Of a stretch of DNA of 60,457 nucleotides, positions 14,304-41,800 are shown piece after piece. Below the pieces are notes generated by a model that saw only the letters and a list, made by a program, of their open reading frames with translations, had not been told where the DNA came from and did no database searches. The stretch is from Craspedostauros australis (Eukaryota), in NCBI GenBank assembly GCA_030167865.1, contig JALAGF010005726.1, positions 1-60,457 of the forward strand, read 5' to 3'. Each line of letters opens with the position of its first letter. Position 1 is the first letter of the stretch. A program made the translations under genes and the position numbers.

Positions 14304-16889
14304 ATGATTCCGAGATGGAGCAACTACAGCAACAGCCAAGTGCGCGTTCCAAGTGGTGTCAACAGCGACATCTCTTCCTCCAAGGACTCGCAGGACAACT
14401 CATGCAGTCCTGGCAACAAGCGAGTCAGCAACATCTGCCGATGGTGGTTGGTGTGCTGCCTCTTCCAGTGCTGCGCTGTTGTCTTGTACTTTCAAAAGAT
14501 CTCGGATTGGACGTTGGAGGCGCAGCTGAAACTGGACGCGCACAACCAGCCTTCGCGGCAGCAACAGTCAGGTATCCATGCAGATTTCCACATCATCACG
14601 ATGGGTCGTGATGGCGGTAGTACTGAACGCCCTGATACGGAACAGAATTCCACCAGTTCACATCATGTCAGCAGCGGACAGAGCGTACCGTCGCATCATC
14701 TGCGGTTGGCCTCAGTTCCGTCCTCTGAACCGCAGCAGGATCATCAACAGTCGACGCCAACAAGCTCTCCAAGCAGCGAAGACGAATTCAACTTGATCAT
14801 TGATACGTTTCGAAAGGTGATGAAGGGAAGGGTATACTTTCAGACGCAGTCCTGGAATCTACTTGCGGGATCGCATCAAGACACCCGAACGAACGTAACC
14901 AACCGTTCAGCGTATGCAGATGACGATCGTGATCATCATCATCATCATCATCATCACTTGCAGATACGTGATCTTCTATCTCAATCGCCTCATCTCCAGC
15001 AGCAACGGCAAACGGCATGGTCCAATTTCGAATCCTTACAACAACAGAAGCAACAGCGACAGCAACAGCGACAGCAACAGCAACAACAATACTCAATACC
15101 AGATGCACCATCAGGCGATCAGAATGATCTCATCATTTGGGACAACGAAGCCGATGTCAGCTCGTACTTCGACCATCTCATCAACAACTGCGGCACCGCC
15201 TTTGATGCCACCACGGACCAACACTTCCAACAGCGATGCTGGGACTCCCTGCTGCATCTTGTCGACGCCCCGCGATGCACAACGCAGCTTGATTCCACCT
15301 TCACATGCGACGGGAATGCCACGGCCTCCATCGACATCAATGCCACGGGCACGGTGAAACCAGCACAGATCCCATCCCTGCGACGCATCGACCCGCAACA
15401 GCTCATTCGAGATCATTTCCTGTCCGCAGACAATTCCATCAACATCGTCATCATCGGTGCTGGTCCGGTCGGTCTGTTCCTTGCCAATATCCTCTCGCGC
15501 GTCAAAGGATTCAAGCGTCCATTGCGTGTCCTCGTCTTCGAAAAGCGGACGACGCAACCGGGTCGCAAGAAGGCCTACGAGCGGGATTGGTTGACAGAAC
15601 TACCCTCGGTCTCCTTCGAGCAGACGGATCCCAGAATCGTGGAGTTCCTCTCAGTCGTTCACACCGAATCCTGCGACGAATACACGGCTCGCATGATGGC
15701 GAAGCGAAAAGCCGCCAAACTCGCCAATAGCACCATCGTGTTCGATGAGAAGGAGCTGGATGTCAGCCAGGTGTCGGAGACCTACGACTGCAAAACGATC
15801 GTTCCCAAATGCATCGACTCCATCACGCATCTGCACACGACCCTTCCGATCAAGGTCCACGAGACCTTCCTCCTCATCTCCAACCGAGAACTTGGCGTTA
15901 AGTTCATCTACGAGGATGTCGCATCGTACAAGGACATGCTGGCGTCCATGCCCAACATGATGGTCTTTGACGCGTCCGGGCATCGCATGGATCAGCTGCA
16001 CAGGGGCGATATCGAGGGTGCGCGTGTCACCATCTCCAAATGGACCGACGAGACCGCGCACGGCCGGGATGACCTGTTGCGGGAGCCGGACTTCGACAGG
16101 GTCGGTCTTAGAACCTACAAGATGCTCAGCCGGATGGACATGAATACGCGTGTTGCGCAGCATGAATCCGACCAGGGCACCATCCTCTACCCAGTCACGA
16201 AAGACACCCACGAACCTTTCGTTGTGCGCATGCTCAAGATCAACGACTCGCGGTACACGCAGGGTTGCCAGAGCCTCTTCATCGATCTGGTCACGGCAAT
16301 GAAGGACGTCATGCTAGCGCAGACCGCATTCTGCAGCTACTGCGCGAAGAGCATACGCCCAGCACAATGTGACAACGTGTGCCGATTGAGCTTTGGTTGG
16401 GACGTCATCGAGAAGTACAGGCAGGACATCGGCCTCAGCATGACGAAGAGGCCGCCGGGATTCGCCACCATGGTCTCCATCCTCACACTCACCGCTCGCC
16501 AGCACGATGCCTTGATGTACCTCACCAAAGGCGGCGCCACCGCGATGCCGCTGGGCACATGGCCATTGACTGCGATGATGTTCGACTCCGTCATGCGCGA
16601 GAACAACCTCATCCACGCTTTGAAGCTTTACTGGCGTTACGCCGGATCCATGTACCCGCTGGCGTCCATGTTGTCGCACGTCCCCTACATTTACGCCGAC
16701 CCGCTGATCCCCACCACGGCCATCACGAACGCGCGCATCGGCGATGCCCCCTTGTTGCGGGTCGGCGATTCCATGTGGACCGGCAATCCCAACTGGTCCA
16801 ACGGATTGACGATGCACGTGGCGACGTTGCACAAGTTCTCCAAGCTTCTCAACGATATCGACACCAACGACGACGATGATGGAATATAG
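14304..16889 (+). CDS. Type II membrane-anchored FAD-dependent oxidoreductase-like protein, paralogue 1 (861 aa)
   Basis: TM RWWLVCCLFQCCAVVLYF; INIVIIGAGPVGLFLA..VFEKR (Rossmann), VFDASGHR (DG-like motif), LLRVGDSMWTGNPNWSNGL (GD motif); clear similarity to three other ORFs in the window. Confidence 0.88.
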   Translation: MIPRWSNYSNSQVRVPSGVNSDISSSKDSQDNSCSPGNKRVSNICRWWLVCCLFQCCAVVLYFQKISDWTLEAQLKLDAHNQPSRQQQSGIHADFHIITMGRDGGSTERPDTEQNSTSSHHVSSGQSVPSHHLRLASVPSSEPQQDHQQSTPTSSPSSEDEFNLIIDTFRKVMKGRVYFQTQSWNLLAGSHQDTRTNVTNRSAYADDDRDHHHHHHHHLQIRDLLSQSPHLQQQRQTAWSNFESLQQQKQQRQQQRQQQQQQYSIPDAPSGDQNDLIIWDNEADVSSYFDHLINNCGTAFDATTDQHFQQRCWDSLLHLVDAPRCTTQLDSTFTCDGNATASIDINATGTVKPAQIPSLRRIDPQQLIRDHFLSADNSINIVIIGAGPVGLFLANILSRVKGFKRPLRVLVFEKRTTQPGRKKAYERDWLTELPSVSFEQTDPRIVEFLSVVHTESCDEYTARMMAKRKAAKLANSTIVFDEKELDVSQVSETYDCKTIVPKCIDSITHLHTTLPIKVHETFLLISNRELGVKFIYEDVASYKDMLASMPNMMVFDASGHRMDQLHRGDIEGARVTISKWTDETAHGRDDLLREPDFDRVGLRTYKMLSRMDMNTRVAQHESDQGTILYPVTKDTHEPFVVRMLKINDSRYTQGCQSLFIDLVTAMKDVMLAQTAFCSYCAKSIRPAQCDNVCRLSFGWDVIEKYRQDIGLSMTKRPPGFATMVSILTLTARQHDALMYLTKGGATAMPLGTWPLTAMMFDSVMRENNLIHALKLYWRYAGSMYPLASMLSHVPYIYADPLIPTTAITNARIGDAPLLRVGDSMWTGNPNWSNGLTMHVATLHKFSKLLNDIDTNDDDDGI

Positions 16890-17931: not shown

Positions 17932-20844
17932 ATGAGCACCAACATGCAATCTCATTCCACCATGATGGACAGGAGCCTGCGGTCGCACAATCACAAGAAG
18001 AGAAGGCAGACAGTTCTGCTTTGGTGGCTGTTCTGCTTGATCTTTCAATTCTCCATCCTGTTGATCCAATTCCGAAACGCCTCACGATGGCAATCAAGGC
18101 CGGAGACCGCATCGAATCGCCCGGATCATACACGTCGTGACGATCGCAGCGAACGACACAGCCGAGAGGATGGCGGCCAAGGCGCAATCCAAGTTGATGA
18201 AATCACCAATGACAGCCGTGACCATGGTGGCGACGACATTGAAGAAGTGGACGGACATGATGATAACGATGGCCGCGATGATGGCGATAGCGAAGAGGAT
18301 AAAGATGAAGAAAAGGATTCAGAACAATCCATTCGGATACAGTCCAATGACGATCGTGTCCCCAAGCATCGCTTGGAAATGCCGTCGGGAAGTGGCGAAA
18401 AGAAGGAACGGCAGAAGCAGCGATCGCATCACATGCGAAAAGGCCAACACACAGCACAGGACGAATTGAGCATGATCACCGATACATTCCGAAAAGCGCT
18501 CAATGCGAAGCTCTACTACCAAACTCAGACCTGGAACATGCTGGCAGGATCGGAGCTTGATACGCGAGCACATATCCCAAGTCGATCTGCATTTGCCAGC
18601 GATGACGACGGCAACGACTCGCAAATCCGCGATCTCCTTCGTCTGTCTCCGCGGCTGAAATGGCAGAGACAAACTGCATGGTCAAATTTCGATGCAGTAA
18701 CACGGCAGCAGCGGCAGACGCAACAAAAGCAGGTATCAGCTGGACAAACACCAAAACACGACAGTGATCGCATGATCTGGGACAACGAAGGCGATATCAG
18801 CTCATACTTCAACCATCTCTTGTATCATTGCGGGCGGTCCTTCAACGCATTCAAGGACCCGACCTTCCAACAACGGTGTTGGGATTCGCTCATCCATCTC
18901 GTCGATGCTCCACGATGCACGACGCAACTGGATTCCACCTTCACATGTGATGGCGACGCCATCGACTCCATCCAGCTGAATGTGACAGGCACCGTCAAGC
19001 AATCTCGCATTCCAGCATTGCGACGCATCCAGCCTCAGAAGCTGATACGAGGTCATTTCCTGTCGACGGAGAACTCGATCAATGTGGTCATCATCGGTGC
19101 CGGACCTGTTGGTCTGTTCCTCGCCAACGTCCTGGCCCAAGTCAATACATTGAAGACACCAGTGCGCGTCCTCGTCTTCGAAAAGCGCACAAGCCAGACG
19201 GGCCGCAAGAAGCCGTACGAGCGGAATTGGTTGACGGAGATTCCTGCAAGTTACTTTGGGCAGAGCGACCCACGAATTGTGAAGTTCCTCAGAGTAGTGC
19301 ACGAAGATATATGCGATCCTGGTGGAAACAGGGGCGGTGGCAATGCAGCAGCCAAAACTGTGAGCAACGAAAAGGAAAAAGAAGAGAAAGACAGCGATGA
19401 AGAGGAGGAAGCAACGGAGGAAGCATCCGAGGAGGAGGAAGACAAGAAAGAACAGAAAGATAGCGATGAAGAGGAGGAAGAAACTGAGGAAGAGAAAGAT
19501 GATGAGAAGGAAGAGAAAGAGAAAGACAAAAGGAAAGGCAAAGTCATCGATGATGCAGCAGAAGAAGCATCAGAGGAGGAAGAGGAGGAGGAGGAGAGTG
19601 CAGAGACTCACCCAGAGAAACGTCGTAGACTCAGTGTTGTCGATGCAGACGACAGCGAAGAAGAAGTGAATATGTACGGATTCACTGCAGCGCAAATGGC
19701 CTTGAGGTGCCAAATGAAAGCATGGGAAAGCCACACATCCCTTCCCATCAAGTTCTACGAAACTCTCCTCTTGCTTTCGAATCGTGATTTGGGCGTCAAG
19801 TTCATCTACGAGGATGTGACATCATACAAAGACATGCTGGCTGCGATTCCCAACATGATCGTCTTTGATGCATCGGGACATCGGATGGACCCCCTTCAAA
19901 AGGGCTTCCCAAACGATGAAGGCGCCCATTCAGACAAGGATTCGAAAGGTCTGCGCCGGCAGAAGCACCACAAGGGCACCATCACGGTCTCGAATTGGAC
20001 AAGGAGCGAAGGCAACGGGTACGAGGAGGCACTGCGGACTCCACTGTTGAACAAGCTGAGCATTGAGGCCTTCACGCTCATGCAGAATCTGGACATGCAG
20101 GCCAAAGTGGCCCGGCACGAATCGAAGCAGGGGACCATCCTTTACCCAGTCACCAGGGACACCCACGAGCCTTTCGTTCTCCGAATGCTGAAGATCAACG
20201 ACTCCAGACAAACCAGGGCCGAGAAAGGCCTCTACTCTGGACTGAATGGATTCATGAGCGATGTGATGGTGTCCCAGCACCCGCTCTGCAAGTACTGCGG
20301 AGAGCACGTGAAGAAGGGTTGCTTGCAGATCTGCCGGTTGGGTTGGCCATGGGATACGATAGGAAAGTACCGCATCGACATCGGCCAGACCATGGCGAAG
20401 CACCCTCCGGGATTTTCCACCATGGTCTCGATCCTGACGCTGACCGCCCGCCAGCATGACTCATTGATGTACCTGACGAAGGGCGGAAGCACGTCCATGC
20501 CGCTGACTGCGCTGCCGTTGGACTCGATGAAGTTCGACCCGATCATGAGGGAGAACAACCTCGTCCATTTGCTACGGTACTACGCTCGATTCTCAACCTC
20601 TGACTACCCTGTCCTGTCCGTGTTCTCGTACGTACCGTACATCTACACAGACCCGCTGGTACCGATCACCGCCACGACGGATGCGCGCATCGGCAAGGCC
20701 CCTTTGCTGCGAGTGGGCGATTCCATGTGGACCGGCAATCCCAACTGGGCCAATGGGTTGACCATGCACATTGGGGCATTGCACAAGTTCTCGAAGCTCC
20801 TCAATGCCGTCGAGGCCGGAAACGACGACGATGATCGTGTCTGA
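17932..20844 (+). CDS. Type II membrane-anchored FAD-dependent oxidoreductase-like protein, paralogue 2, with Glu/Lys-rich insert
   Basis: KKRRQ then TM TVLLWWLFCLIFQFSILLI; GAGPVG..FEKR, FDASGHR, RVGDSMWTGNPNWANGL. First in-frame ATG at 17932. Confidence 0.88.
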   Translation: MSTNMQSHSTMMDRSLRSHNHKKRRQTVLLWWLFCLIFQFSILLIQFRNASRWQSRPETASNRPDHTRRDDRSERHSREDGGQGAIQVDEITNDSRDHGGDDIEEVDGHDDNDGRDDGDSEEDKDEEKDSEQSIRIQSNDDRVPKHRLEMPSGSGEKKERQKQRSHHMRKGQHTAQDELSMITDTFRKALNAKLYYQTQTWNMLAGSELDTRAHIPSRSAFASDDDGNDSQIRDLLRLSPRLKWQRQTAWSNFDAVTRQQRQTQQKQVSAGQTPKHDSDRMIWDNEGDISSYFNHLLYHCGRSFNAFKDPTFQQRCWDSLIHLVDAPRCTTQLDSTFTCDGDAIDSIQLNVTGTVKQSRIPALRRIQPQKLIRGHFLSTENSINVVIIGAGPVGLFLANVLAQVNTLKTPVRVLVFEKRTSQTGRKKPYERNWLTEIPASYFGQSDPRIVKFLRVVHEDICDPGGNRGGGNAAAKTVSNEKEKEEKDSDEEEEATEEASEEEEDKKEQKDSDEEEEETEEEKDDEKEEKEKDKRKGKVIDDAAEEASEEEEEEEESAETHPEKRRRLSVVDADDSEEEVNMYGFTAAQMALRCQMKAWESHTSLPIKFYETLLLLSNRDLGVKFIYEDVTSYKDMLAAIPNMIVFDASGHRMDPLQKGFPNDEGAHSDKDSKGLRRQKHHKGTITVSNWTRSEGNGYEEALRTPLLNKLSIEAFTLMQNLDMQAKVARHESKQGTILYPVTRDTHEPFVLRMLKINDSRQTRAEKGLYSGLNGFMSDVMVSQHPLCKYCGEHVKKGCLQICRLGWPWDTIGKYRIDIGQTMAKHPPGFSTMVSILTLTARQHDSLMYLTKGGSTSMPLTALPLDSMKFDPIMRENNLVHLLRYYARFSTSDYPVLSVFSYVPYIYTDPLVPITATTDARIGKAPLLRVGDSMWTGNPNWANGLTMHIGALHKFSKLLNAVEAGNDDDDRV

Positions 20845-21739: not shown

Positions 21740-24313
21740 ATGGCACCAAAGCATCGTGCAAAGGCACCATCCAAGTCGAAGTCCAAGTCGAAGTCAAAGC
21801 CTCTCCCTCCGCAACGAACTGCCGGGCCATCCACCAACATGGCCACGGACGCGAACACCGAGACCATGACGGCGCGACACGTCGTCAGAAGCAACAACCG
21901 GCGACTGGGCATGGTTCTGTGGTGCACGTTGATATGCGGTATCGCGCAATTCTCCACCCTCGTATTCACACAGGCAGGCGCTGACTACTGGTGGATGCCA
22001 TGGCGAGCTCCTGCAACTGGAGCTGCGACGACGACCGCCAAAGCCTCATCTCCTGGCGTTCCCGACATGCTGCGGTTGCAATCACCCGCCAATGCTCCAC
22101 TCGCTGCCGAAGATCAGGTGCCGTCGCATCATCTGCGGATGCCTGCCACCAACCAGCAGCAGCAAATACAGAGAGATGGCAATGTCACACAGGGCACTGA
22201 TGCTCACGGCCACGCACGATCTCCAAGCTCACAGAATCATGCAAAGCCAGCGCAATCGCAGGCGAACATCACAAAATCAGCCGCAGACCAACAGTTAACT
22301 CAACACGAGATCAGCAGGATCATTCGGATATTCCAAAAGGCCATGAAGGCGAAGATCTACTACCAGACGCAATCCTGGAATCTCCTCGCTGGCTCTGACC
22401 TGGACACACGCGTCGATGTGCCGAGCTGGTCTTCTTTTGCCCAGGGCGATCAGGATCCGCAGATACACGATATGCTCCAGCAATATCCGCAGCTCGAGCG
22501 ACAGAGGGAGATGGCATGGTCATCCTTCGATTCTATGCGGCAACAACAACAAGGAAAGGCAGCCGATGGCAGAATACCATCGGATGGTGAGGATCTCGTC
22601 ATCTGGGACAACGAGAAGGATATCGGCACCTATTTCGACCATCTCATACACAACTGCGGAGACTCCTTCAATGCAACGGAGGACTCGACCTTTCAACACC
22701 GATGCTGGGATTCTGTGCTGCATCTCGCCAATGCTCCGCGTTGCACAACGCAGCTTGATTCCACATTCGAATGCGACGGTCGTGCCGCGGATTCCATCGA
22801 CACCAGCATCACGGGCACAGTGCAGCCGTCTCAGCTTCCGTCGCTGCGGCGCCACGACCCAGAACAGCTGATTCGGGATCATTTCTTGTCGAAGGAGAAT
22901 TCGATCAACGTGGTCATCATCGGCGCGGGTCCGGCCGGTCTCTTCCTGGCAAACATCATGTCGTACCTGCGGCTGGTCGAAGTCCCCATGCGCATCGTGA
23001 TCTTTGAGAAGCGAACGAGTCAGGTTGGGCGCAAGAAGCCCTACATTCGCAACTGGCTCACGGAGATTCCTGCCAGCTCCTTCTATCATGCCGATTCCAG
23101 AATTCTGCGCTTCTTGCAAGCGGTGCACAACGATCGTTGCGAGGACATCGTGACTAAACCAGACAATCCCTACGCCAATCTCGATCACGCGGCAGCCCTG
23201 AAACAGTGCGAAGAGGACAAGTGGGGCAAGCACACCTCGTTGCCGATCCGCTTTCACGAGACCCTCCTCCTGATATCCAACCGTCAGCGCGGCGTCAAAT
23301 TCATCTACGAGGACGTGGAATCGTACAAGGAGATGCTGGCGTCCATGCCCAACATGATCGTCTTTGATGCATCGGGACATCGCATGGATAAGCTGAATAG
23401 ACCGCCGGGGCGGAACCCGATCAACGGGGAGCCCAGTCCAAACATCAACGTGGCACAATGGAGTTCCACGCACGGCGCAGGTTACGACACCCTTCTCGGA
23501 GAGGCCAACATAGGTGGCATCGGTGAGCCCATTTACGAACTCTTGCGCAAGGAACAAGCTCGAGCCCGCGTGGCGCGCTACGAATCGGACCAGGGCGTCC
23601 TCCTGTACCCCGTCACCAAAGGCGACCACAAGCCGTTCGCCGTCCGCATGCTCAAGATCAACGACTTTCGGCACACGAGATATGAGAACGGCTTCAACTT
23701 TCAATATCGCTCTTCCATCTCCGCGGTCATGCTTTCCCAGCACGAGTTCTGCACGCTCTGCGGCAAAGACAGACAACTTGCGGGATGCTCAAAGATCTGC
23801 AGGCTGAACTGGACATGGGATACGATCAACAAATACCGATCGGATGTCGCGCGACGCCTCAACGACGAATCTCCAGGATTTTCCACAACTGTGTCCGTCT
23901 TCACATTGACTACGCAACAGCATGACGCCATGATGTACATCACGAAAGGTGGCAGCACGCCCATGCCGTTGGAATCCTTGCCGTTGTCTGCCATGAAGTA
24001 CGATCCCATCATGCGCGAGAACAATTTCTTCCAAGCGCTCAAGTTCTACGCGAGCTATGCTGGCGGTATCGACTACCCCCTCGTCTCCGTCTTTTCCTTC
24101 GTTCCGTACATGTACGCCGATCCTCTCGTTCCGATGACAGCAGTGACAAAAGCTCGTATCGGCGATGCCCCCTTGCTGCGCGTCGGTGATTCCATGTGGA
24201 CGGGAAATCCCAACTGGGCCAATGGGTTGACGCGGCATCTTTCGACGCTGCGGAGTTTTGCGAAGATGATGCATCCAATCATTGTCGCCGACGATGACGA
24301 TGACGGTGTATGA
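21740..24313 (+). CDS. Type II membrane-anchored FAD-dependent oxidoreductase-like protein, paralogue 3 (shortest insert)
   Basis: RR then TM LGMVLWCTLICGIAQFSTLVF; GAGPAG..FEKR, FDASGHR, RVGDSMWTGNPNWANGL. Start uncertain (ATGs at 21689, 21740 and further upstream; ORF open from 21212). Confidence 0.86.
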   Translation: MAPKHRAKAPSKSKSKSKSKPLPPQRTAGPSTNMATDANTETMTARHVVRSNNRRLGMVLWCTLICGIAQFSTLVFTQAGADYWWMPWRAPATGAATTTAKASSPGVPDMLRLQSPANAPLAAEDQVPSHHLRMPATNQQQQIQRDGNVTQGTDAHGHARSPSSQNHAKPAQSQANITKSAADQQLTQHEISRIIRIFQKAMKAKIYYQTQSWNLLAGSDLDTRVDVPSWSSFAQGDQDPQIHDMLQQYPQLERQREMAWSSFDSMRQQQQGKAADGRIPSDGEDLVIWDNEKDIGTYFDHLIHNCGDSFNATEDSTFQHRCWDSVLHLANAPRCTTQLDSTFECDGRAADSIDTSITGTVQPSQLPSLRRHDPEQLIRDHFLSKENSINVVIIGAGPAGLFLANIMSYLRLVEVPMRIVIFEKRTSQVGRKKPYIRNWLTEIPASSFYHADSRILRFLQAVHNDRCEDIVTKPDNPYANLDHAAALKQCEEDKWGKHTSLPIRFHETLLLISNRQRGVKFIYEDVESYKEMLASMPNMIVFDASGHRMDKLNRPPGRNPINGEPSPNINVAQWSSTHGAGYDTLLGEANIGGIGEPIYELLRKEQARARVARYESDQGVLLYPVTKGDHKPFAVRMLKINDFRHTRYENGFNFQYRSSISAVMLSQHEFCTLCGKDRQLAGCSKICRLNWTWDTINKYRSDVARRLNDESPGFSTTVSVFTLTTQQHDAMMYITKGGSTPMPLESLPLSAMKYDPIMRENNFFQALKFYASYAGGIDYPLVSVFSFVPYMYADPLVPMTAVTKARIGDAPLLRVGDSMWTGNPNWANGLTRHLSTLRSFAKMMHPIIVADDDDDGV

Positions 24314-28266: not shown

Positions 28267-31248
28267 ATGGCAGATGTAGCTGGCGACACTGAGCTGCATC
28301 GTGCATGCAGATCGGGGGATGTAGCTAGAGTTCAAGCCTTGCTAGAGGGCGGAGCGGAGGCAGATCTGGAGGCTGTCAATGCAGCAGGCAAAAGGCCTCT
28401 TCACGATGCTTCCAGCCACGACCGTGCAGATGTGGTGGAATGTCTGCTCAACTTCTGCCGCAACAACGACAACGTCGACATTAGTCTCAATGCCACAGCA
28501 GGCTCCAGTGGCTGTACTCCTCTGCACTATGCCTGCATGCACGGTCGCCAGGACATCGCAGAGAACTTGCTTCGTTTCGGCCAAGCCAACGGCAACGAAA
28601 ACATCAACGTCGCTATCCAAGACACGAGGGCTGGCTTCACGCCCCTTCATTGTGCTTGCAAGCACGGCCACAGAGAATTGGTGGAATCTCTCCTTGATCA
28701 TTGGCAACTCAACGCCGACGCCAACATTGATACCTACCTTCGCATCGAAGACAATGACGGCCATTCCTCTCTGCACCATGCCCGAGAGAATCGTCACACA
28801 AGTGTGGTGGCGGATCTGCTTCATTTCATTCCCGCCAGCGCGACGCGTGATGATATTATCACCAGAGATGAGGCCAATGGTTGCACAGCATTGCATTATG
28901 TCTGTGAACGGGGCGACGTGGCTGTTGTGCAAAACTTGCTCGACCGCCACGTACCTAATACCATCTTCGATATCCCAAACGACGAGGGCAACACGCCACT
29001 TCATGTGGCTTGCATGGAGGGTAAACGCGATGTCGTTGAGTGTCTCCTACGATTCAGGGAGGCAAACAACGGCAACAATAGAACCTACATCAATCTCAAT
29101 GCTCGCAACGAAGAAGACTTCACGCCATTGCATTTCGCCGCCGAGTATGGCTTCCGACAAACCGCAGCACAGCTGATCGCTCTCACTGATATTGATGTGA
29201 ATGCTCAGGACATCAACGGTGACACACCGTTGCATATCACGTGTCAAAAGCACAACCCGCACGTAAACGACAACCACTTCCGCATATTCGAGATGCTTGT
29301 GCAGCGCGACGGAATCAATCTAGAGCTCGTCAACCAAAACCAAGAAACGGTCCTACTCCTTGCGTGTAGATACCATACAACGCCCAATGAGCACGATTTT
29401 GGCAGCTTCCTCGACTTATTGGTGGCGTCAGGCGCCAATATCAATGCAAGAAATGAGGATGGGTACACAGCATTACATTTGCTTCGTGTCAGCCCGACAC
29501 CTAAAGATATGTGCAGAATCCGAATTTACTTTCGTCGTGCTAGGGCGGATCTCAACATCCAAAACATCCTTGGACAGACGGCCCTTCACCTTGCATGCGT
29601 GCATGGGAGATTGGAGGCAGTGCGCAACTTGGTCGAAGAAACGAATGCAGATGTGAATGTCCGAGATTATGAGGGCAACACCCCGTTGCACCTGCTTTGT
29701 GGGGGGCGGGGTGGCGATGATCTCATAATCTACCAATACCTTCGTGATGCTGGGGCGGATTTCAACATCCGAAACATCCTTGGACAGACGACCCTTCACC
29801 TTGCATGCATGCATGGCAGACTTGAGGCAGTGCGTTTCTTGGTCCGACAATTGAATGCAGATGTGAATGTCCGAGATAAACAGGGCAACACACCGTTGCA
29901 CCTGCTTTGTGGGGGGCAGGGTGGTGATGATCCCAGAATCTACCGATACCTTCGTGTTGCTGGGGCAGAGGTCAACATCCGAAACAACCTGGGACAGACG
30001 ACCCTTCACCTTGCATGCATGCATGGCAGACTTAAGGCAGTGGTTATCTTGGTCCGAAAATTGAATGCAGATATGAATGTCCGAGATTATCAGGGCAACA
30101 CCCCGTTGCACCTGCTTTGTATGGGGCGGGGTGGTGATCATCCCAGAACCTACCGATACCTTCGTGATGCTGGGGTGGAGGTCAACACCCAAAACAACCT
30201 GGGACAGACGGCTCTTCACCTTGCATGCATGCATGGGAGACTCCAGGCAGTGTGTTTCTTGGTCGAAGCAACGAATGCAGATGTGAATGTCCGAGATAAA
30301 CAGGGCAACACCCCGTTGCACCTGCTTTTTGGGGGGCGGGGTGGTGATGATCCCATAATCTACCGATACCTTCGTGATGCTGGGGCGGAGGTCAACACCC
30401 AAAACAACCTGGGACAGACGACCCTTCACCTTGCATGCATGCATGGAAGACTTAAGGCAGTGGTTATCTTGGTCCGACAATTGAATGCAGATGTGAATGT
30501 CCGAGATAAACAGGGCAACACACCGTTGCACCTGCTTTGTGGGGGGCGGGGTGGTGATGATCCCAGAATCTACCGATACCTTCGTGATGCTGGGGCAGAG
30601 GTCAACATCCGAAACAACCTGGGACAAACGCCACTTCACCTTGTATGCACTCATGGGAGATTGGAGACAGTGCGTATCTTGGTTGGACAACTGGGTGCAG
30701 ATGTGAACGCCAAAGACATGCAAGGCAACGCGCCAATCCATGTCGTGTGTTGCTACGGAGACTCCAATGCCGTCCGATTCTTTGTTGAAGCAACGGATGC
30801 CAATATCAACATCCGAAATAACCTGCAGCAGACGCCAATGCATCTCGCATGTGCAACAGGGCAACAAGAAGTGGCAGAGTACTTGATCGATCGCCCAAAT
30901 GTGGAGGCCAATGCTGGAGACGTTGATGGGGCTACCATGATCCACATGGCGTGCTTGGGAGGGTACTGGGATCTCGCTCAGTCGTTGGCCGCACGGGAGC
31001 ACGTTGACATCAACGCGATCAATACGGCTGGCAACACAGCTCTGCACATCCTGTGTTGTTGGGGACAGTTCAATGTCGTGCGGGATTTTGTTGAAGTTTT
31101 CGAGGCTGACATCACCATCACCAACAACGACGGACGCACACCATTGGATTTGGCGACTTTTGGGGGACATCGGGAGGTGGTCGAATATCTCACTCCGTTT
31201 TATCAGCAGCGGCATCTTCGACAAGCGCCGCCGGGTCAGGAACAGTGA
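28267..31248 (+). CDS. Long ankyrin-repeat protein (about 990 aa) with a near-identical internal repeat array
   Basis: More than 20 ankyrin motifs (GDTELHRAC, GCTPLHYAC, GNTPLHVAC, GQTTLHLAC, GNTPLHLLC). ATG at 28267 (MADVAGD). Confidence 0.92.
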   Translation: MADVAGDTELHRACRSGDVARVQALLEGGAEADLEAVNAAGKRPLHDASSHDRADVVECLLNFCRNNDNVDISLNATAGSSGCTPLHYACMHGRQDIAENLLRFGQANGNENINVAIQDTRAGFTPLHCACKHGHRELVESLLDHWQLNADANIDTYLRIEDNDGHSSLHHARENRHTSVVADLLHFIPASATRDDIITRDEANGCTALHYVCERGDVAVVQNLLDRHVPNTIFDIPNDEGNTPLHVACMEGKRDVVECLLRFREANNGNNRTYINLNARNEEDFTPLHFAAEYGFRQTAAQLIALTDIDVNAQDINGDTPLHITCQKHNPHVNDNHFRIFEMLVQRDGINLELVNQNQETVLLLACRYHTTPNEHDFGSFLDLLVASGANINARNEDGYTALHLLRVSPTPKDMCRIRIYFRRARADLNIQNILGQTALHLACVHGRLEAVRNLVEETNADVNVRDYEGNTPLHLLCGGRGGDDLIIYQYLRDAGADFNIRNILGQTTLHLACMHGRLEAVRFLVRQLNADVNVRDKQGNTPLHLLCGGQGGDDPRIYRYLRVAGAEVNIRNNLGQTTLHLACMHGRLKAVVILVRKLNADMNVRDYQGNTPLHLLCMGRGGDHPRTYRYLRDAGVEVNTQNNLGQTALHLACMHGRLQAVCFLVEATNADVNVRDKQGNTPLHLLFGGRGGDDPIIYRYLRDAGAEVNTQNNLGQTTLHLACMHGRLKAVVILVRQLNADVNVRDKQGNTPLHLLCGGRGGDDPRIYRYLRDAGAEVNIRNNLGQTPLHLVCTHGRLETVRILVGQLGADVNAKDMQGNAPIHVVCCYGDSNAVRFFVEATDANINIRNNLQQTPMHLACATGQQEVAEYLIDRPNVEANAGDVDGATMIHMACLGGYWDLAQSLAAREHVDINAINTAGNTALHILCCWGQFNVVRDFVEVFEADITITNNDGRTPLDLATFGGHREVVEYLTPFYQQRHLRQAPPGQEQ
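29551..30740 (+). repeat. 210-bp coding tandem repeat: 5 full copies plus a diverged partial copy; each unit is 70 aa (two ankyrin repeats)
   Basis: Units start at 29551, 29761, 29971, 30181, 30391 and 30601; gaatgtccgagat recurs at exact 210-nt spacing with no indels in the full copies. Confidence 0.95.
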
Positions 31249-31804
31249 TAGTGGGATAGGAACAGATCAAGACAACCGGAGGGACCGAGTGGCGTGGGAA
31301 TAGTAGATGGGGAGCACAGACAGAGTATGGTGTCATACTTTTCTGTCCTGGTAATAGATGCAGTTTACTTTAGTAAGTCTATGAGCCGAACATCGCAATT
31401 GTGTAATCAGAAGACACGCCGCCTTGCGGCACATCCCGCAGTTGATTGGATTGATGGGCGTTGCTCTTCCACTTGAGAGGGTCGGTCTTGTCTCGTCTCA
31501 GTAGCATGTTGGTGGCGGTATCAACGGTCGAGTTTGTTTGGCGAGCGATGTTGTGACAACGTGACAAACCGCGCCACAACAACACAGCGCTCTGAAATGT
31601 CACCACAATGATCTGCATTCACAGACACGAGAGACTTGCGCAAGCCTCGCATCTCTCAGCCACGCTGGGCATTGGCCTCTTGCATCCATGGAAGGCAGGA
31701 AGTGACAAGTGACGAATCCTCCAACATCCGCAGCTGAAGGACCATTCATTCTGCTGCGTTCGTTGCCGCAATCGCAGTCATTCTCATCCAATCAGGCACC
31801 AACG

Positions 31805-34210
31805 ATGACCGCAAAGAGGAAGACGAGCATCACATCCGGATCCGCGTCCACCATGACTCCTGTTGTCCCGAACCGCAGGGGAGCCAAGAACGCGAAGAGG
31901 CACATGCTCGCCATCGTCCTCGTCGCTGCCTTTCTGATTGGACAATCCCAATTGCTGACAACGGGCTTCTTGGATACGGCATCCTCCATTTGGGAGTCTC
32001 CCTACCAGCACATCAAGCCAGACTTTCTCTTTGTGGGATACCTTGGTGGTGACGATGATGCCGATGCTGATGCTGAGTGGGAAGATGAGGGGCACAGTGA
32101 TGCTGAGGGTGATGCTGAGGGTGATGCTGATGATGGAATTGATTTCACTCTGTTGCTCCAGCTCAGCCCCAACATCACGCAGATCCGAGCAGCTGTGACG
32201 GGAGAGCAAGGTGAACCCGCCGAGAACGCGGCTCAGCGGCAGAAGCACCTCGAGCAATCCCAAACGGCCGGAGCAACTCTCATCCTGACACAGTCAATGC
32301 AACCAACGAAGCACTCAGCTACGTCCAAACTCTGCGCATGCGAGGTGGTGTCGGTGGACTGTCTCGAATCCATAGACTGCCTCAGCATCCGCGATGACAA
32401 CGAGGATGACACGGATGACGCGTCGTACACCGTCCTGCACGATGGCGAGGAGATCTCGCTGTCCTACGTGCTCACCAACCAGCAGCGACGCCAGGTCATG
32501 ATGGGCATCGCGACGCGCATCGCAATCCGATCCTTCGGCAACATCGTGTCGACCGGAACCAATCAATTCGGTCCCGTCGGCCTCGTCACGCCACCGGGCA
32601 AGGGGATGCAGTACCTGGGCATCACGTCGTGGCAGCATTTCACGCAGCGCAGACCGATGCAGGTGCGGTACGGGACGCGCAATAGCTTCGCCGATGAGCT
32701 CTTTCATCCCGAGTGTCACGCCAATAGCACGTCCAATCCACTGGGGCGCACGTTGGTGGGCAAGAGCTGCTTCTTTCGAGATTGGGATGCGGAGGAACAA
32801 TTCGAGCCCATGGAACAGCTCTCGTGGCCGGCAGCGGGGATTACGGCGGACGCAAGAGCTGTGGGAAGTACAAACGGAGATGCAGACGCGAATGCAACAC
32901 AGCAGCAGACGGCGGAGAATGAAGATGCAGACGAGAGAGAGGGTTCTGACCTGCCCTCGCAATTGCGATCGCTGTCGGCGGCGGCGGCGCATCCATCACT
33001 GTTGGCGCTTGGTTGCTCGGATCTTATTAACGCAAAGCAGTTCCACGAAATGATGCAACTGGCGTACACCGATGTGCGGGACTACATGTCCGCAGTCCAA
33101 GGTCGCAGGATGTGGATCGACGTGAAGACCAATCCCAACTCGACCAAGAACACCGTCTCTCCGATGGCGGACCTGCTGGTGTTCTGCCACATCATTCTCA
33201 TCCGGTACAACCGACGCGCTGGGACGCAACAGTTCTATGACGACCACGTCAAGACCATCGCAGCTCAGACGAGCAGGCACGGTCCCAATCGCAAGGCATT
33301 CCCCGTCAGCATGCATCTCCGGCGAGCGGATTCATGCGGTCACAAGAAACGCCATCGCTTCGAGCCCAAGGCATCGCCGTTGGATTCCGTGCCGCAGACC
33401 TCCGGACGTCGCATGTGCTATGCCACGCGCGTGTACCTGGACAGCCTGGAACGCATCGAAGACAAGGTGCAACGACCGCTCGAGGTCTACCTGTCCACGG
33501 ATTACGCGGAACATCTGCTCACGGAAATTCGAACAGACGAGCCCGACCTGTACAACCGCATCACCTGGAAGGTCATCGAGGTCTCGCGCGATACCTTCAA
33601 GTACCAAGGGTACGTCGAGGGCGCCGAGGACAATCACCGGCACCTCGGAGAGTCCGCCTTCGCCGACATGTGGCATCTCAGCCATGGTCAGGCCTTCGTG
33701 GGGCATCTGGGGTCGCGCTTTGGCAAGGTTTCCTGGTACCTGGCGACAGCGCGGTACAACTCCCTCGTTCCGTTCTTCAGCGTCGACGGGCACAGCGTGT
33801 GCTGCGAAATCGACGAGTCTTGCGGAGCAGTGGCATCGTCCATCACGTCCATGGAGAATTGGTAAGGTATTGTGTGTGTGTGTTCGCGTGTGTGCGTGTG
33901 ACAGTGGGCAGGTAGATGACGGGTGGCGCTGATGGTGGGATTGTTTGCCGACTCATACGTATCGATTCAAACCGCGTTTCTCCAAACTCACAATTGTATC
34001 ATGCGATGCGTCACCTTTGGCCATACGTATGGTAACTGTTCTGGCATTGTATGTTTTGTGTGTGCGCGCAGCCTCACTTTCTCCCATGAGATCCTGGGCC
34101 GGCAGCACGATAGCTACTGGGAAAAGGGATCATTGATGCGCACGGCAATGGCCAACGACCCGAATCGACAGAAAAAATACGCGAGAAGATCCGGATACTT
34201 GCATTACTGA
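31805..34210 (+). CDS. Type II membrane glycosyltransferase, FUT8/GT23-like (GDP-fucose-dependent GT-B fold); intron 33862-34071
   Basis: TM MLAIVLVAAFLIG after basic N-terminus; fucosyltransferase motif-like segments SMHLRRADS (I), VYLSTD (II), ADMWHLSHGQAFVGHLGSRFGKVSWYL (III). GTAAGG donor at 33862 and CAG acceptor at 34071 give MENC-LTFSHE..YLHY*. Confidence 0.75.
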
Positions 34211-36529: not shown

Positions 36530-38887
36530 CTTGTGTGTTTGTTTGTGTGCGTACTTGTGTTGGGTTTGGTGTGGTATGGTCTTGTGGAATGGTGAAGCTT
36601 GTAGTGGCGTTGGTTGTGTTGTGGTTGGCGGTTGACTTGTGCGCGTTTTATGAGCAGATCATTGCAGTTGTTGGATGATGCTGGGGGCCAAGCACGAGCG
36701 TTTCCCGTTGAGCAACCGATGTCAAAGGAAGCCGACAAGACCGATCTTGCACAGAGAGGACAAGAGCGATTTGTTCGTCACGCTTGATTCGGTGGTTGTG
36801 TCCAATGTTGCGCTATCGTGAACACGCCCATTGCCGTCCTCGTGAAATCGTGCGCAAGGGCGGGAGTGGCAACACAATCAGTCATCCACGATCAGCCCAA
36901 CATGTCCTTGATTCAATCGGATGGGCATCACTGTGATCCAATCAATTATCCGGCTTCAACGTCGACAGCGTTGTGTGTTCGCATCGGTGCACTATAAGGC
37001 GTTCTGCATCGCCTGGTAGTCGCTCATCCCGTATCACAACTTCGCTTTTTCCATCAGAGGTGGCGGCCTGAGCGCTTCTCGGATTCGCCGGACACCATAT
37101 CTTCTTCGTCTTTGCAGCAGGAAGCAAGGAACTGTCCCTTCGCCTGTTCCAAACGGACACCACCATCTCCTAGTGAGGCCATTGACTCTCAGCAGGACAT
37201 AGCTTCGATGTCTATTTCCCCACACCGGCTATCACCAGATGCGCAATGCATCACGATAAACTTGTGTTATCCGTTCGCGAGCAAGTCCTCAGTCATGCTC
37301 CGCCACACTCCATGGCACATGACTCCGCTCCACATGCGAGGACACCCCTGCCACTATTGCCAGCTATGGTGCGAATACAGTTGTTGTGCGCCCATGGTCA
37401 GCGCTATCACCTGCCGGCACTTTTGCTCCTTTGCGCAATGCACCAGAGAATAGATTGGAGGTGGTTTGCTCTCATTGCTCAAATTCACCCGCCACCCTCT
37501 CCCCAGAGTTGCCGCAGCTCACAGTTGTGTGTCCTCGTTCTTCGGAAAAGGAGATTCTCATCACCCGGTTGTTCCAGATGCTGACGCAGGCGGAATTAGA
37601 AGAGATGTCAGCAGTTGGCACTAACAATCTGCTCTCTCTCTCTCTCCCGTTACCAATCAAGAAAGTTGTGGGTCATGGCACAGAAGGCTTCGTTCGAGTA
37701 CAGGGAAGGAGCAGTTCCGCTCCAAAGATATCTTGTCCCTCGCCGCAGACAAGAAATCGTTCCCCATCTCGTGACCGACATTTATCACCCCGCTTCGCGG
37801 ACGAACAGGCCTCCATTGCTTCGACTCGCAACACATTTTCGAAACAGAAGAGAACAATCCACGCGACCAGTCACTGCAACTCCTCTGATGTCCTCCGAGT
37901 ACGCGTACTACTATGGACCAAGTGGAGTTCTGCGAACACCAATGTCGCCCACACACGTTCGCGGCTTGTGTCGACGCAGAAGGGGAGAACACACGATGCT
38001 GTATGCAACAACCAAACCATCCCACTTCGATCCTTTTCCAAGCGCGCAACGAGTCTCTCTGTTTGCAAGGATAGAATCATATGTTCAATGTTCTGTGATG
38101 ACATCACCCTCATTGCGATTAGGTGGATTTGAAGTTGATGAGGTGAGCGTGGTAAAACACACTCTCGCATACGTGCAATACAGGTATTGTGCGGGTGGAT
38201 GATGCACTGCAACATCGTCTTGAGGAACTTTAGAGATTGCTGCCGCTATACTCGTACGTAAGTTCGTGGTTTTGGCGAGGAGTATTCGAGTCTGCAACAA
38301 GTCCCCTCTTCGGACAAGTTGGACCCTTTGCTGAGCAGTGTGATGATGATGCACGAGCAGTTCCCAAACTTGGATGACAACGTCGCACTCGTACTGGCAC
38401 GAGTGAGGCGAAGTGGTTGTATTTCAGATGCGTAAGCGAACGGACAGCAAGTCAGCGGTATTGAGTCTCACGTTTACATACAACACCTGTACCTGAAAGG
38501 AGCCGCCTCCATGCAGTCCTCTTCTAATTGTACCCGCTTACCACAGCCAACGCAAATATTATGTTGGTCTGAATACACTCTTGTGAATGTACTTTGTTCT
38601 ACTCGCCTACACGTACTGAACATGTTCGGATTCGATGCCTGGTTGGCTCGAAACGCTCACCAAAGTTGTGACCAGCCCCAGGCATTCTCATGTCGTTCAC
38701 TACCGGGCTGTGACTACCATACCTCGCACCCGTCTCTACGAGGAACGCTTTGAGGTTCGCGATGGAGCGAAGTGTAGTGAATTCACATGTTTCCTCCACG
38801 CGAGTGGATGGGATGCCGCATGAATGCCGGATCATCCTCCCCAACCTCATGCACGAAGGGTAACTTGAGCAGTGCGAGTATTCGACT

Positions 38888-41800
38888 CTAATACTGACCG
38901 ATCGCCTCCCACAGAAGGTATCCAAAGCGATGCATCGCCGAGAGATGCATGGAGAGGCCGTTGCCCCAGTTGGGATTGCCGGACCACATGGAATCGCCCA
39001 CCCTCAGCAACGGCGCATCACCGATACGGCCATCTGTCACCGCCGTCGTCGGGACCAGCGGATCGGCGTACATGTACGGTGTGTACGTGAATACGGACAG
39101 GATGGGAAAGTTCGTCCCGCCGTGTCGGGCGAGGAATCGCAGCGCGTGGATCAGGTTGTTCTTGCGCAGGACGGGATCATATCCCATCGACTCCAAGGGC
39201 AGCGCCGCCAGCGGCATGGTCGTGCGGCCGCCCTTGGTGAGGTACATGAGGACGTCGCGCTGCTCCGCGGTGAGGGTTAGCACGGCGACCATGGTGGCAA
39301 AGCCTGGCGGGTCGCGATTCATTCTCAGTGCGATGTCCTGGCGGTACCTCTCCATCACGTCCCAGCCCCAGGCCTGCCGGCATATCATGAAGCAGGCCGT
39401 GTCGAATTTCTCCGCACAGCGTGTGCAGAATGGATGCTGCGAGAGCATGATGTCGACCATGGCCGTCACGAGGTTGAAGTGGAGCCCCACGCAGCCTCTC
39501 GTTCGCTGGAAGTCGTTGAGCTTGAGCATGTGAAGGACGAAGGGTTCGTTCGTGTCCTTCGTGACGGGGTACAGCAGCGATCCCTGGGGGGATTCGTATT
39601 GCGCGACACGGATAGTGGCGTTGTCCTCGTCGAGTGCCTGGATGTCCAGTTCGTGGACGAAATTGTTTTGCAGTTCAACTCGATTCCACTCCTCGTGTTC
39701 GTGACCGAAGGTTCCATTCCAGGTGGACACGATGGGATTGAATCCATGTTCCGCTCGTCGTTGCTCCTGCCGAACTCTCGCTCGCAATACCGCAGTCTTC
39801 TTGGCATTTTCCGTTTCTGTGGTGGCTAGTTTTGCGGTCTCGTTTGGCTTCCCGAGCCTCGTTGCCCATCCCCAGGTCTCCGCTTCTGCTTCGACTGCTG
39901 CAGTGGACACGGGGACTCGCTCCAGTGTATCCAAACGATGACCTGATGCGTCGAAGACGATGAGGTTGGATACGGATGCGAGAACGTCCTTGTAGTTGTT
40001 GAAGTCGTCGTAAATGAGCTTGACCCCGCGGTCTCGGTTGGAGAGCATGAGCAAGGTCTCGTGGATCATGATCGGCAGGGAGGAGTACTGGTCATGTCCT
40101 TCCCGCACGCATTCTGGTACGATTTCGGAGCAATCGTACATATGGCAGCTCATCATCGCCCTCCCTTTCATGTAGGATTCGTCTTCGGGTACTGCGTCCA
40201 GCAATGCATCCATCTCGTCTGTCTCCCACCCGGTTGCGCCCTCGCCGGCATAGAAGTAATCGTAGCCGTCGTATTCGTATCCATCATATTCGAAGTCATC
40301 GACGTCTTCCTCCTCGGCGCCGTCTGCTGAATAATCATAAGCATCGAGATCACCCTCCTCTTCATCATCTTCTACTTCTTCGGATGCGTATGTGTATGCG
40401 GAGGCGTATGCGTATTCATCATCGTCGTCGTCATCATTGTTATCCTCTTCGGCCGCGACTGCTACGCCTGTTGCTTCGTCGAGCATGTCCTCCATATCGA
40501 CCAAGCCTTCTTCCACTTCACCGGAATAGTCGTTGGCACCGTACTCTTCCTCCTCCTCGTCGTCGTCGTCGTCTCCGTATGCGTATGCGTATGCGTATGC
40601 ATATGCGTACTCGTCAATACCATCATACTCTTCCTCTTCGTCATCTTGTCGAGTTGAGACTGCTACTGCTTCAGCTTGATCGTCGGTTGTGTATCCTGCA
40701 TCGACCAGTTCTTCTTCGGCATAATATTCGGATGCATCGTACTCTTGCTCCCTCTCCTCGTCTCCTTCGTACGCGTATGCGTACGCGGACGTGTAGTCGT
40801 ACTCGTACTCATCATACTCCTCTTCTTCTTCGTATGCATCTGCGTACGCATACTCATCGCCATCATACTCGCCTTGGTCTTCCTCATCTTGTGTGGCTCC
40901 GACTATTGCTTGCGTTTCGCTGTCACCAAATGTGCGCTCTGCATCAACCAACTGGTCGTCCAGTTCCGCAAAGTACTCGTAGTCATCCTCTGCATCAAAT
41001 TCCGCATCGTCGTCATCGCTGCCGTACCAGTAATCATAGTCGTCGAGGTATGTCTCGCCTTCGTACTCATCGTAGAGATACGCGTCATCCGTCTCATGCT
41101 CATCGACGTAGTCTGCAGCAGCCTGCTGCTCACTCCAGTGGCACGGAACATTGAAGATTGCCTCGAGGAATTGGACGATCCTTGGATCGCCATTCTCAAA
41201 GAGATGGATGGGAAGCTCCGTGAGCCAATCGCGGCTGTAGGGTTTCTTGCGATGCGGTTGCGTCGTGCGCTTTTCGAAGACGACGACTTTCACGTTGGTG
41301 AGGTAGGAGAGGATGTTGGCGAGGAAGAGTCCGGATGGACCAGCGCCGACGATGGCAACGTTGATGGACGCGGCGTCGAAATGGTGTCGGATGAGGTCGT
41401 TCGCAGTGATGGTTTGCCGCGATGCGAGTTGGGATGCAGGCACCGTGCCGGTGGCATTGACGTGGATGGCATCCGTGACGTCGCCGTCGCACGTGTAGGT
41501 GGAATCGAGCTGCGTCGTGCATCGCGGGGCTTGGACGAGATGGCGCAAGGAGTCCCAGCACTGTTCCTGGAAGAGCGGGTGCGTGTCGGCGTTGAAGGCT
41601 TGGCCGCAGTTGTGTATGAGGTGATTGAGGTACGTGTCCACGTCCTGCTCGTTGTCCCAGATGATGCGATCATCGTTGTTCACATCCGCGGTCTCTTGTT
41701 GCTCCTCTGTCTGCTGCTGTTTCTTATCTTGCGCTCCCTGCTTGATGGAATCAAAGGCCGACCACGCAGCCTGGTGCTCCAAATGCGGCAAGCGCTGCGC

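What the first reader, a model, noticed from the sequence alone, without database searches (positions are those of the whole stretch)
15672..41145. Hypervariable cassette at one fixed, Cys-flanked site inside the flavoenzyme domain
Seen: between conserved D.RI..FL....C and (H/Y)(T/S)(T/S)LPI..(H/Y)ET.L the four paralogues hold unrelated sequence: about 55 aa mixed (15672-15830), about 135 aa Glu/Lys-rich (19312-19730), about 25 aa (23138-23232) and about 350 aa Tyr/Asp/Glu-rich (40090-41145). Every insert starts with Cys and has a Cys shortly before its end; the frame is intact in all. Inference: a disulfide-pinned surface loop displaying an exchangeable polyelectrolyte module that could set localisation, metal or mineral binding, or substrate. 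Alternative: a merely tolerant loop in a slippage-prone genome.
Basis: partly seen in the sequence, partly recalled or inferred. Interest (0 to 1): 0.72.

Follow-up and report, generated by a model that had tools for sequence, protein, structure and literature searches.

The report
Disulfide-stapled acidic arms in diatom flavoenzymes
Four copies of an uncharacterised membrane-anchored oxidising enzyme in a diatom-like genome carry a loop, probably closed by a disulfide bond, that in two copies has grown into a long, strongly negative protein arm of unknown purpose.

Summary
Four tandem paralogues (W1-W4) are type II membrane, PHBH/MICAL-fold flavoproteins. Two Cys lie in exact register around 45, 131, 22 and 343 aa (net charge 0, -35, -2, -132), so only W2 and W4 are polyanions. 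In relatives the site is a short turn (median span 37 aa versus 67-388 here). Seven other paralogues of this genome lengthen it without Cys, so the Cys pair arose once, in this cluster. A second Cys pair, one in the insert and one in the substrate lobe, is kept or lost together. The arms grew in place by tandem duplication and slippage, separately in W2 and W4. W4's internal repeats show coding constraint (no stops, third-position excess, acidity kept), so the arm is translated and not neutral filler. Relatives grow acidic arms from two other Cys-closed loops, while their Cys-free expansions are near neutral (small sample). Best reading: a lumenal disulfide staple lets a loop beside the substrate lobe grow a disordered polyanion, weakly selected for charge. 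Disulfides, expression of the inserts, substrate and ligand are unproven. No orthologue was found.

The parts
14304..16889 (+). W1: type II membrane flavoprotein, 861 aa (start codon inferred)
17932..20844 (+). W2: paralogue, 970 aa (start inferred)
21839..24313 (+). W3: paralogue, about 824 aa (start inferred); modelled at pTM 0.92
38888..42430 (-). W4: paralogue, 1180 aa (start inferred); earliest branch of the four
15672..15812 (+). W1 Cys1-Cys2 loop, 45 aa between the Cys, net charge 0; predicted helix after Cys1, then a low-confidence stretch ending YDCxxIVPxC
19312..19710 (+). W2 Cys1-Cys2 loop, 131 aa, net charge -35
19378..19520 (+). 69-bp tandem repeat (2.1 copies, 79% matches) inside the W2 arm
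23138..23209 (+). W3 Cys1-Cys2 loop, 22 aa, net charge -2; predicted helix-loop-helix at pLDDT 87-90
40109..41143 (-). W4 Cys1-Cys2 loop, 343 aa, 137 D+E, 48 Tyr, net charge -132, two further Cys
40319..40981 (-). Three imperfect 68-81 aa units (LVD anchor, spacer, D/E run, (YA)n, D/E run) inside the W4 arm
15789..15791 (+). W1 extra Cys in the insert (YDC); candidate second disulfide
16266..16268 (+). W1 TxGC Cys in the substrate lobe; present only in W1 and W4
40130..40132 (-). W4 YDC Cys
39491..39493 (-). W4 TxGC Cys
39719..39952 (-). Second, Cys-free variable site after DASGHR in W4 (78 aa; the same site is 15969-16043 in W1, 19867-19998 in W2, 23366-23461 in W3)
14433..14489 (+). W1 N-terminal hydrophobic anchor after basic residues (W2 18010-18066, W3 21911-21967, W4 42329-42385 on the minus strand)
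   Evidence: hydropathy scan; sequence

Best explanation
The host proteins are membrane-anchored, lumenal or surface flavin monooxygenase-like enzymes of PHBH/MICAL fold. Their substrate is unknown; a secreted protein or glycan is my guess. The loop arose in four steps. (1) Shown: in the ancestor of this genome's paralogues, a short turn between the DPR helix and the LPI strand lengthened by about 12-45 aa. (2) Shown as sequence, inferred as bonds: the ancestor of the four-gene cluster gained a Cys pair that closes the base of the loop, plus a second pair linking the end of the loop to the substrate lobe (kept in W1 and W4, lost in W2 and W3). (3) Shown: W2 and W4 separately grew long acidic arms inside the closed loop by tandem duplication and slippage of GAN-rich DNA. 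(4) Shown for W4, inferred for W2: selection keeps the arm translated and acidic but not its exact sequence. Inferred working: the staple holds the flavin-side strands together so that the arm can be any length, and the disordered polyanion acts through non-specific electrostatics (Ca2+ or polycation binding, solubility, steric access), not as a swappable specificity module.
For: Both Cys are in exact register in 4 of 4 window paralogues and absent from 7 of 7 other intact paralogues. Other family Cys come in pairs among the 105 rows of alignment A3: 138/154 both 67, single 2; 167/177 both 64, single 2; 519/535 both 53, single 5; 522/531 both 37, single 5. The YDC and TxGC Cys are both present in W1 and W4 and both absent in W2 and W3; the TxGC column has Cys in 2 of 55 rows with a residue. 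Models keep the core: W3 pTM 0.92, W1 pTM 0.90. The tree, built with the inserts removed, is (W4,(W3,(W1,W2))), and a W2+W4 clade is rejected at p-AU 0.0003. In the W4 units, 107 of 215 differences are at third codon positions (0.50, against about 0.34 in neutral simulations; 0 of 300 reached it in each of 8 settings). The units hold 0 stops (2.5-5.5 expected) and 3 AAN codons (9-17 expected). The excess persists without GAN codons (0.47 versus 0.32). Five relatives expand Cys-closed loops with net charge -24, -21, -15, -9 and -3, while five large Cys-free expansions have 0, -1, +3, 0 and -6.
Against: No Cys-Cys distance was obtained. The flanking pair is a single evolutionary gain, so its co-occurrence is one event. 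W4 has an unpartnered extra Cys in the arm. The LVD spacer inside the W4 units is neutral-like (third-position share 0.34), and an unrelated acidic repeat in the window's ankyrin-BTB gene shows the same bias (6 of 9), so the constraint may be generic to coding repeats. The simulations use one unit as a stand-in ancestor and omit slippage, which can itself renew acidic codons. Acidic tracts (at least 15 D/E in 30 aa) occur in 3 of 13 other long ORFs of the window. Cys-free loops also expand by 50-75 aa, so a staple is not required for moderate growth. The ten expansions compared for charge were picked by me from the largest, and some may share ancestry.
Confidence: 0.55

Rival explanations
1. 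Selected display arm. The stapled loop is a platform on which paralogues evolved polyanions that bind a specific polycation or mineral (long-chain polyamines, Lys-rich wall or adhesive proteins, Ca2+-bridged glycan). This would target each enzyme to its matrix or gate the substrate lobe through the second disulfide.
For: Two separate acidic expansions at one site, acidity retained in W4, and acidic growth in other Cys-closed loops of relatives. There is a diatom precedent for lineage-specific disordered charged repeats on an expanded enzyme family binding substrate: the TARP repeats in PMC11960938, section 10.
Against: 9 of 11 intact paralogues lack a polyanion at this site (net +2 to -9). No orthologue was found to show conservation. 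In the relative P0011 the acidic Cys-closed loop changes faster than the core: 9-11 differing columns in 76 aa against 12-13 in 584 aa, including a 3-aa slip.
Confidence: 0.25
2. Purely tolerant loop. The arms are slippage products with no function, purged only of stops and aggregation-prone residues, and the Cys are incidental or merely stabilising.
For: All 11 paralogues vary here, 7 of them without Cys. Microsatellites and acidic tracts are common in the window. The spacer in the W4 units is neutral-like, and a control repeat shows the same third-position bias.
Against: Lys, Arg and Asn codons are strongly depleted in W4 although they are one transition from Glu and Asp codons and are equally soluble (137 GAN to 4 AAN; simulations). 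Two Cys pairs are retained in register over cores only about 50% identical.
Confidence: 0.17
3. The long inserts are introns or are spliced out.
For: In-frame GT..YAG pairs removing at least 80% of each insert exist: 4, 6, 2 and 7. No RNA read over the inserts was seen.
Against: The frame is open through 345 codons while the other two frames hold 7 and 33 stops in W4. W4 has 48 TAY codons and no TAR codon. None of the 19 in-frame pairs has a branch-point motif, their pyrimidine share is 0.24-0.59, and the W2 insert is 76% purine.
Confidence: 0.03

Closest known systems
MICAL monooxygenase domain (PDB 6ici, 2bry)
   Same: The top 8 Foldseek hits (E 3.6e-7 to 3.3e-5). VIA-align Z 11.5, rmsd 5.2 over 311 residues, with the aligned range starting in the N-terminal helical region. 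[quoted passage not shown]
   Different: TM-scores are only about 0.27-0.36. No CH, LIM or coiled-coil domains; an N-terminal membrane anchor and paired Cys instead of a cytosolic protein; Pro rather than Trp seven residues after the GD Asp (my motif count).
PHBH-class (group A) flavoprotein monooxygenases: PHBH, kynurenine 3-monooxygenase
   Same: GxGxxG, FEKR, DASGHR and GD..P..NG motifs; VIA-align Z 11.5-12.5, rmsd about 4.2 over about 265 residues.
   Different: No Pfam FAD_binding_3 or NCBIfam cut-off is reached. Secretory topology, extra disulfide-type Cys pairs and the long insert are not features of those enzymes.
Nepenthesin-1-type insert of plasmepsin V (PMC9478907; abstract and opening text seen)
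   Same: A disulfide-held insert in a lumenal enzyme domain; there it is needed for catalysis.
   Different: That insert depends on its sequence. Here the loop varies 15-fold in length and two copies are low-complexity polyanions.
TARP repeats and loop insertion in Nitzschia sing1 alginate lyases (PMC11960938; passages and section 10)
   Same: An expanded diatom enzyme family with bacterial relatives that gained lineage-specific disordered charged repeats of variable length; a loop insertion there changes the mode of action.
   Different: TARP repeats are cationic and lie between domains. Here the arm is anionic, sits inside the catalytic domain and is flanked by Cys. Binding was shown there and is untested here.
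CxxxxC insert at the same site in P0121 and P0133 (the P0133 cluster has a member labelled Stramenopile MAST-4)
   Same: An insert of about 20 aa with a Cys pair right after the DPR helix, on a distant branch.
   Different: The Cys are four residues apart and do not enclose the insert; no low-complexity growth.

Membership tests
PHBH-class flavoprotein monooxygenases | GxGxxG, DG-type and GD fingerprints (motif set recalled) | tested here: met
   All four carry GAGPxGL, FEKR, DASGHR and GDSMWxGNPNWxNG
PHBH-class flavoprotein monooxygenases | Two-lobed PHBH fold | tested here: met
   Z 11.5-12.5, rmsd about 4.2, about 265 residues aligned, on a pTM 0.92 model
PHBH-class flavoprotein monooxygenases | NAD(P)H- and O2-dependent hydroxylation | not testable with these tools
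   Needs an enzyme assay
MICAL proteins | N-terminal helical bundle plus PHBH core | tested here: met
   Model 103-662 aligned to MICAL3 12-469, Z 11.5, rmsd 5.2, 311 residues; ranges only, no residue-level alignment seen
MICAL proteins | CH, LIM and coiled-coil domains; cytosolic | tested here: not met
   No such Pfam hit; the chain ends about 30 aa after the GD motif; N-terminal hydrophobic anchor
MICAL proteins | F-actin methionine oxidation | not testable with these tools
   Unlikely if the domain is lumenal (inference)
Flavin-dependent halogenases | WxWxIP motif (recalled) | tested here: not met
   The nearest strand reads FGWDVI, WPWDTI, WTWDTI and WGWDVM, without IP
Exchangeable or hypervariable cassette systems | Donor copies or swapped modules elsewhere in the genome | tested here: not met
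   The W4 insert DNA matches only itself in G000 (that search skips simple repeats, and the other three inserts were not searched). No mosaic signal in site patterns along the four genes
Disulfide-closed loop insertions | Cys pair in bonding distance | tested here: inconclusive
   Register and co-occurrence fit; the structure tool gives no coordinates
Spliceosomal intron | Branch point, pyrimidine tract, loss of coding constraint | tested here: not met

The most novel reading that the evidence does not exclude
An undescribed family of secretory-pathway MICAL-like oxygenases in diatoms uses disulfide-closed loops as display sites for de novo polyanionic arms, at three different loops in different lineages. 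In this cluster the arm is also tied by a second disulfide to the substrate lobe, so its charge targets or gates a matrix-modifying oxidase on polycationic wall or adhesive material.
Probability: 0.25. Interest if true: 0.72.

Novelty: new variant of a known kind. Interest (0 to 1): 0.46.

Why it matters
If the arm is functional, it shows a simple route by which a secreted enzyme gains a new binding module from scratch: staple a loop, then let slippage grow a polyanion. Four natural variants (22-343 aa) in one gene cluster make the question of whether low-complexity inserts are functional or neutral directly testable by deletion and swap. The host family is also of interest in itself: lumenal MICAL-like flavoproteins with at least 11 intact copies here and no description found in seven literature searches. 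If the arm is neutral, the site is still a ready-made insertion point in a flavoenzyme.

Tried and rejected
RNA: no RNA holder was listed for 38800-42800, which is no evidence either way, so no reads were laid.

Orthologues: the word-based protein search scored none of 6644 candidates. The exhaustive search gave 176 hits (150 listed), with no full-length close orthologue. Two metagenome scans (73 and 189 pattern matches) and one viral scan (133 matches) confirmed none.

Docking of the W1 loop on its own core with the complex predictor returned 'no answer' and is not used as evidence. The Atlas gave no usable hit for the W4 arm. Earlier scan notes held nothing. PDB sequence searches matched only the Rossmann and GD motifs. 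A first large tree did not finish; a FastTree run and a 14-row IQ-TREE run replaced it.

Rejected: intron; cassette exchange between paralogues; common origin of the W2 and W4 arms (p-AU 0.0003); W1+W4 as sisters (p-AU 0.009). W2+W3 as sisters is not rejected (p-AU 0.14). Halogenase and true MICAL membership were also rejected.

The adhesive-trail preprint 10.1101/2023.03.06.531300 has no main-text mention of FAD, flavin, oxidase, oxidoreductase or monooxygenase (term counts only). Its supplements and those of silica proteome papers were not seen and could list these proteins.

Full report
1. Observation. The window holds four intact paralogous ORFs: W1 14304-16889 (+), W2 17932-20844 (+), W3 21839-24313 (+) and W4 42430-38888 (-). 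W2-W4 are 47-54% identical to W1. After D-x-R-I-x-x-F-L each has a Cys at the same position, and a second Cys exactly seven residues before [HY][TS][TS]LPI. Between them lie 45, 131, 22 and 343 aa with net charge 0, -35, -2 and -132. Three points need correction: only W2 and W4 are polyelectrolytes, and both are acidic; the ends are related in pairs (W1/W4 YDCxxIVPxC, W2/W3 AxALxxC..W); and a second, Cys-free site after DASGHR also varies (25-78 aa).

2. Organism and host enzyme. The window is eukaryotic and diatom-like. Its lycopene cyclase has a signal peptide ending in an ANAF-VIP motif (the diatom plastid-targeting motif is recalled). A fragment that UniRef labels Craspedostauros australis (P0048) is 118 of 133 aa identical to a paralogue elsewhere in this genome. 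Each of W1-W4 has basic residues, one hydrophobic helix, a low-complexity stem and then the enzyme, which I read as type II topology with a lumenal or surface catalytic domain. AlphaFold2 models are confident (W3 pLDDT 90.0, pTM 0.92; W1 87.2, 0.90). Foldseek ranks MICAL domains first. VIA-align gives Z 11-12.5 to kynurenine monooxygenase, PHBH and MICAL3, and MICAL3 also spans the N-terminal helices. The flavin-binding motifs are intact in all four. No family cut-off for a named enzyme is reached. Among 18 bacterial-type relatives that I chose mostly for length, 12 carry TPR repeats, 2 of them also a methyltransferase, and 1 carries a GT4 glycosyltransferase. In 12 of 17 bacterial loci scanned, 5 have fused or adjacent TPR proteins, one lies beside flagellins and one among rhamnose-pathway genes. 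This hints at modification of proteins or glycans, but it is only a lead. P0029, whose sources are listed as UniRef and mmetsp (a transcriptome collection, recalled), equals the last 104 aa of W1. The 3' end of W1 is therefore probably transcribed; the insert is not covered.

3. The site in the family. Among 150 listed relatives, 111 could be measured: the span from the conserved Trp to the LPI motif has median 37 aa and maximum 68, against 90, 176, 67 and 388 here. The ancestral state is a short turn. G000 holds seven further distinct intact paralogues and one frameshifted one. All seven lengthen the site (49-84 aa) with no flanking Cys and net charge +2 to -9. All 11 form one lineage-specific clade (100/100), the four window genes form a clade (100/99), and W4 branches first (99/99) (inserts of W1-W4 removed before tree building). 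So lengthening came first and the Cys pair once, later. In the W3 model the insert is a helix-loop-helix between two short strands; in W1 Cys1 caps a 19-residue helix and the rest is low confidence. That the site borders the substrate lobe is my inference from PHBH topology, partly recalled.

4. Disulfides. No coordinates were available, so bonds are inferred. Eight conserved Cys of the eukaryotic members occur in four pairs that are gained and lost together, which fits an oxidising compartment. The flanking pair is in 4 of 4 cluster genes and in none of the other 101 rows of alignment A3, though most of those rows have no residue in those columns. The YDC Cys inside the insert and a TxGC Cys just after the MLKIND strand of the substrate lobe are both present in W1 and W4 and both absent in W2 and W3. 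W1+W4 is rejected as a clade (p-AU 0.009), so the pair is ancestral to the cluster and was lost jointly once or twice. This suggests that the end of the loop is tied to the substrate lobe. W4 has one more Cys in the arm with no evident partner.

5. How the arms grew. W2 contains a 69-bp tandem duplication and GAG runs; W4 has (TACGCA)n runs and three units about 65% alike. The W4 insert has no other match in the genome. A W2+W4 clade is rejected (p-AU 0.0003), and the two arms differ in make-up (E/K/D versus D/E/Y/A), so they are separate expansions, not swapped cassettes.

6. Translated and constrained. Comparing W4's units, 107 of 215 differences are at third positions (0.50) against about 0.34 in neutral simulations aligned the same way; 0 of 300 replicates reached this in any of 8 settings. 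The units hold no stop (zero stops in 1-21 of 300 unconstrained replicates), 3 AAN codons (9-17 expected) and 3 Lys+Arg (7-11 expected). Without GAN codons the share is 0.47 versus 0.32. Against over-reading: the three comparisons are not independent, slippage was not modelled, the LVD spacer is neutral-like (0.34), and an acidic repeat in a neighbouring ankyrin-BTB gene shows the same bias (6 of 9). In-frame GT..AG pairs exist but lack branch points and mostly lack pyrimidine tracts. I conclude that the arm is coding and held to an acidic composition, not to a sequence.

7. A family-wide pattern. Among 63 eukaryote-type rows, at least six loops take insertions of 25 aa or more. Relatives have grown arms inside two other Cys-closed loops: P0011 (+62 aa) and P0025 (+54) between C138 and C154; P0001 (+121), P0017 (+61) and P0044 (+27) between C519 and C535. 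Their net charges are -21, -15, -24, -3 and -9, while five large Cys-free expansions are 0, -1, +3, 0 and -6. The sample is small and hand-picked. In near-identical variants of P0011 the acidic loop changes about six times faster than the core. P0121 and P0133 have an independent CxxxxC insert at the very site studied here.

8. Mechanism and odds. Best reading (0.55): a disulfide staple at the base of a tolerant loop lets it grow a disordered polyanion that is weakly selected for charge and acts through general electrostatics. Rivals: a specifically selected targeting or gating arm (0.25), neutral filler (0.17), intron (0.03). Shown: register, lengths, history, repeat origin, coding constraint in W4. 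Inferred: topology, disulfides, disorder, any ligand, the enzyme's reaction.

9. Literature. Seven full-text searches (listings seen) showed no description of this family or loop; subscription papers are mostly outside that library. Read: PMC3645671 (passages), PMC9478907 (abstract and opening text), PMC4220933 (passages on tyrosine-rich diatom surface proteins, which were selected as Lys/Tyr-rich and so differ from the acidic W4 arm), PMC11960938 (passages and section 10), and 10.1101/2023.03.06.531300 (term counts only). No supplements were seen.

10. Verdict. A real, lineage-specific feature in an undescribed secretory flavoenzyme family. It works like a disulfide-closed loop insertion carrying low-complexity charged sequence, which is a known kind; the size, the position inside the catalytic domain, the second tether and the repeated acidic growth are new details. 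Interest 0.46.

Noticed in passing
window 27997-31248 (+), repeat 29527-30707: Ankyrin-repeat protein with a 210-bp tandem unit in 5.6 copies at 88% matches, a recent internal expansion.
   Followed up: no
window 7364-9052 (+), 7991-8124: Ankyrin-BTB protein with a 54-bp Gln/Asp/Glu repeat containing Cys (DECQ); used only as a control for third-position bias.
   Followed up: partly
window 49080-50066 (-): ORF of no known family ending in an Asp/Glu/Tyr-rich tail similar in make-up to the W4 arm.
   Followed up: no
window 31706-33865 (+): Another probable type II membrane protein with an acidic stem and no confident Pfam hit, lying between W3 and W4; possibly a glycosyltransferase-like Golgi protein (guess).
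   Followed up: no
window 51918-53774 (-): Lycopene cyclase family protein (PF05834, E 1e-55) with a plastid-type bipartite presequence.
   Followed up: partly
L004, L005, L006 and L010, L011, L012: Two paralogues are each present with identical core protein sequence on three contigs (assembly redundancy or recent duplication); the L010-L012 copy is frameshifted.
   Followed up: no
L008 and L009: Both have lost the inner Cys pair (522/531) of the four-Cys loop together, a clean example of joint loss.
   Followed up: partly
ESM Atlas look-alikes of window 22295-24289: Two top feature matches (0.97-0.98) are clusters that are mostly viral (Nucleocytoviricota). A pattern scan of viral contigs confirmed none.
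   Followed up: partly
L021, L033, L037: Bacterial relatives lie near a LanC-like gene, beside flagellins and TPR proteins, or fused to a GT4 glycosyltransferase among rhamnose-pathway genes.
   Followed up: partly
P0004, P0042: Eukaryotic relatives fused to leucine-rich repeats or ankyrin repeats.
   Followed up: no
window 59561, 59724-59773, 59953-60142: Runs of N near the contig end; none lies in the genes studied.
   Followed up: no
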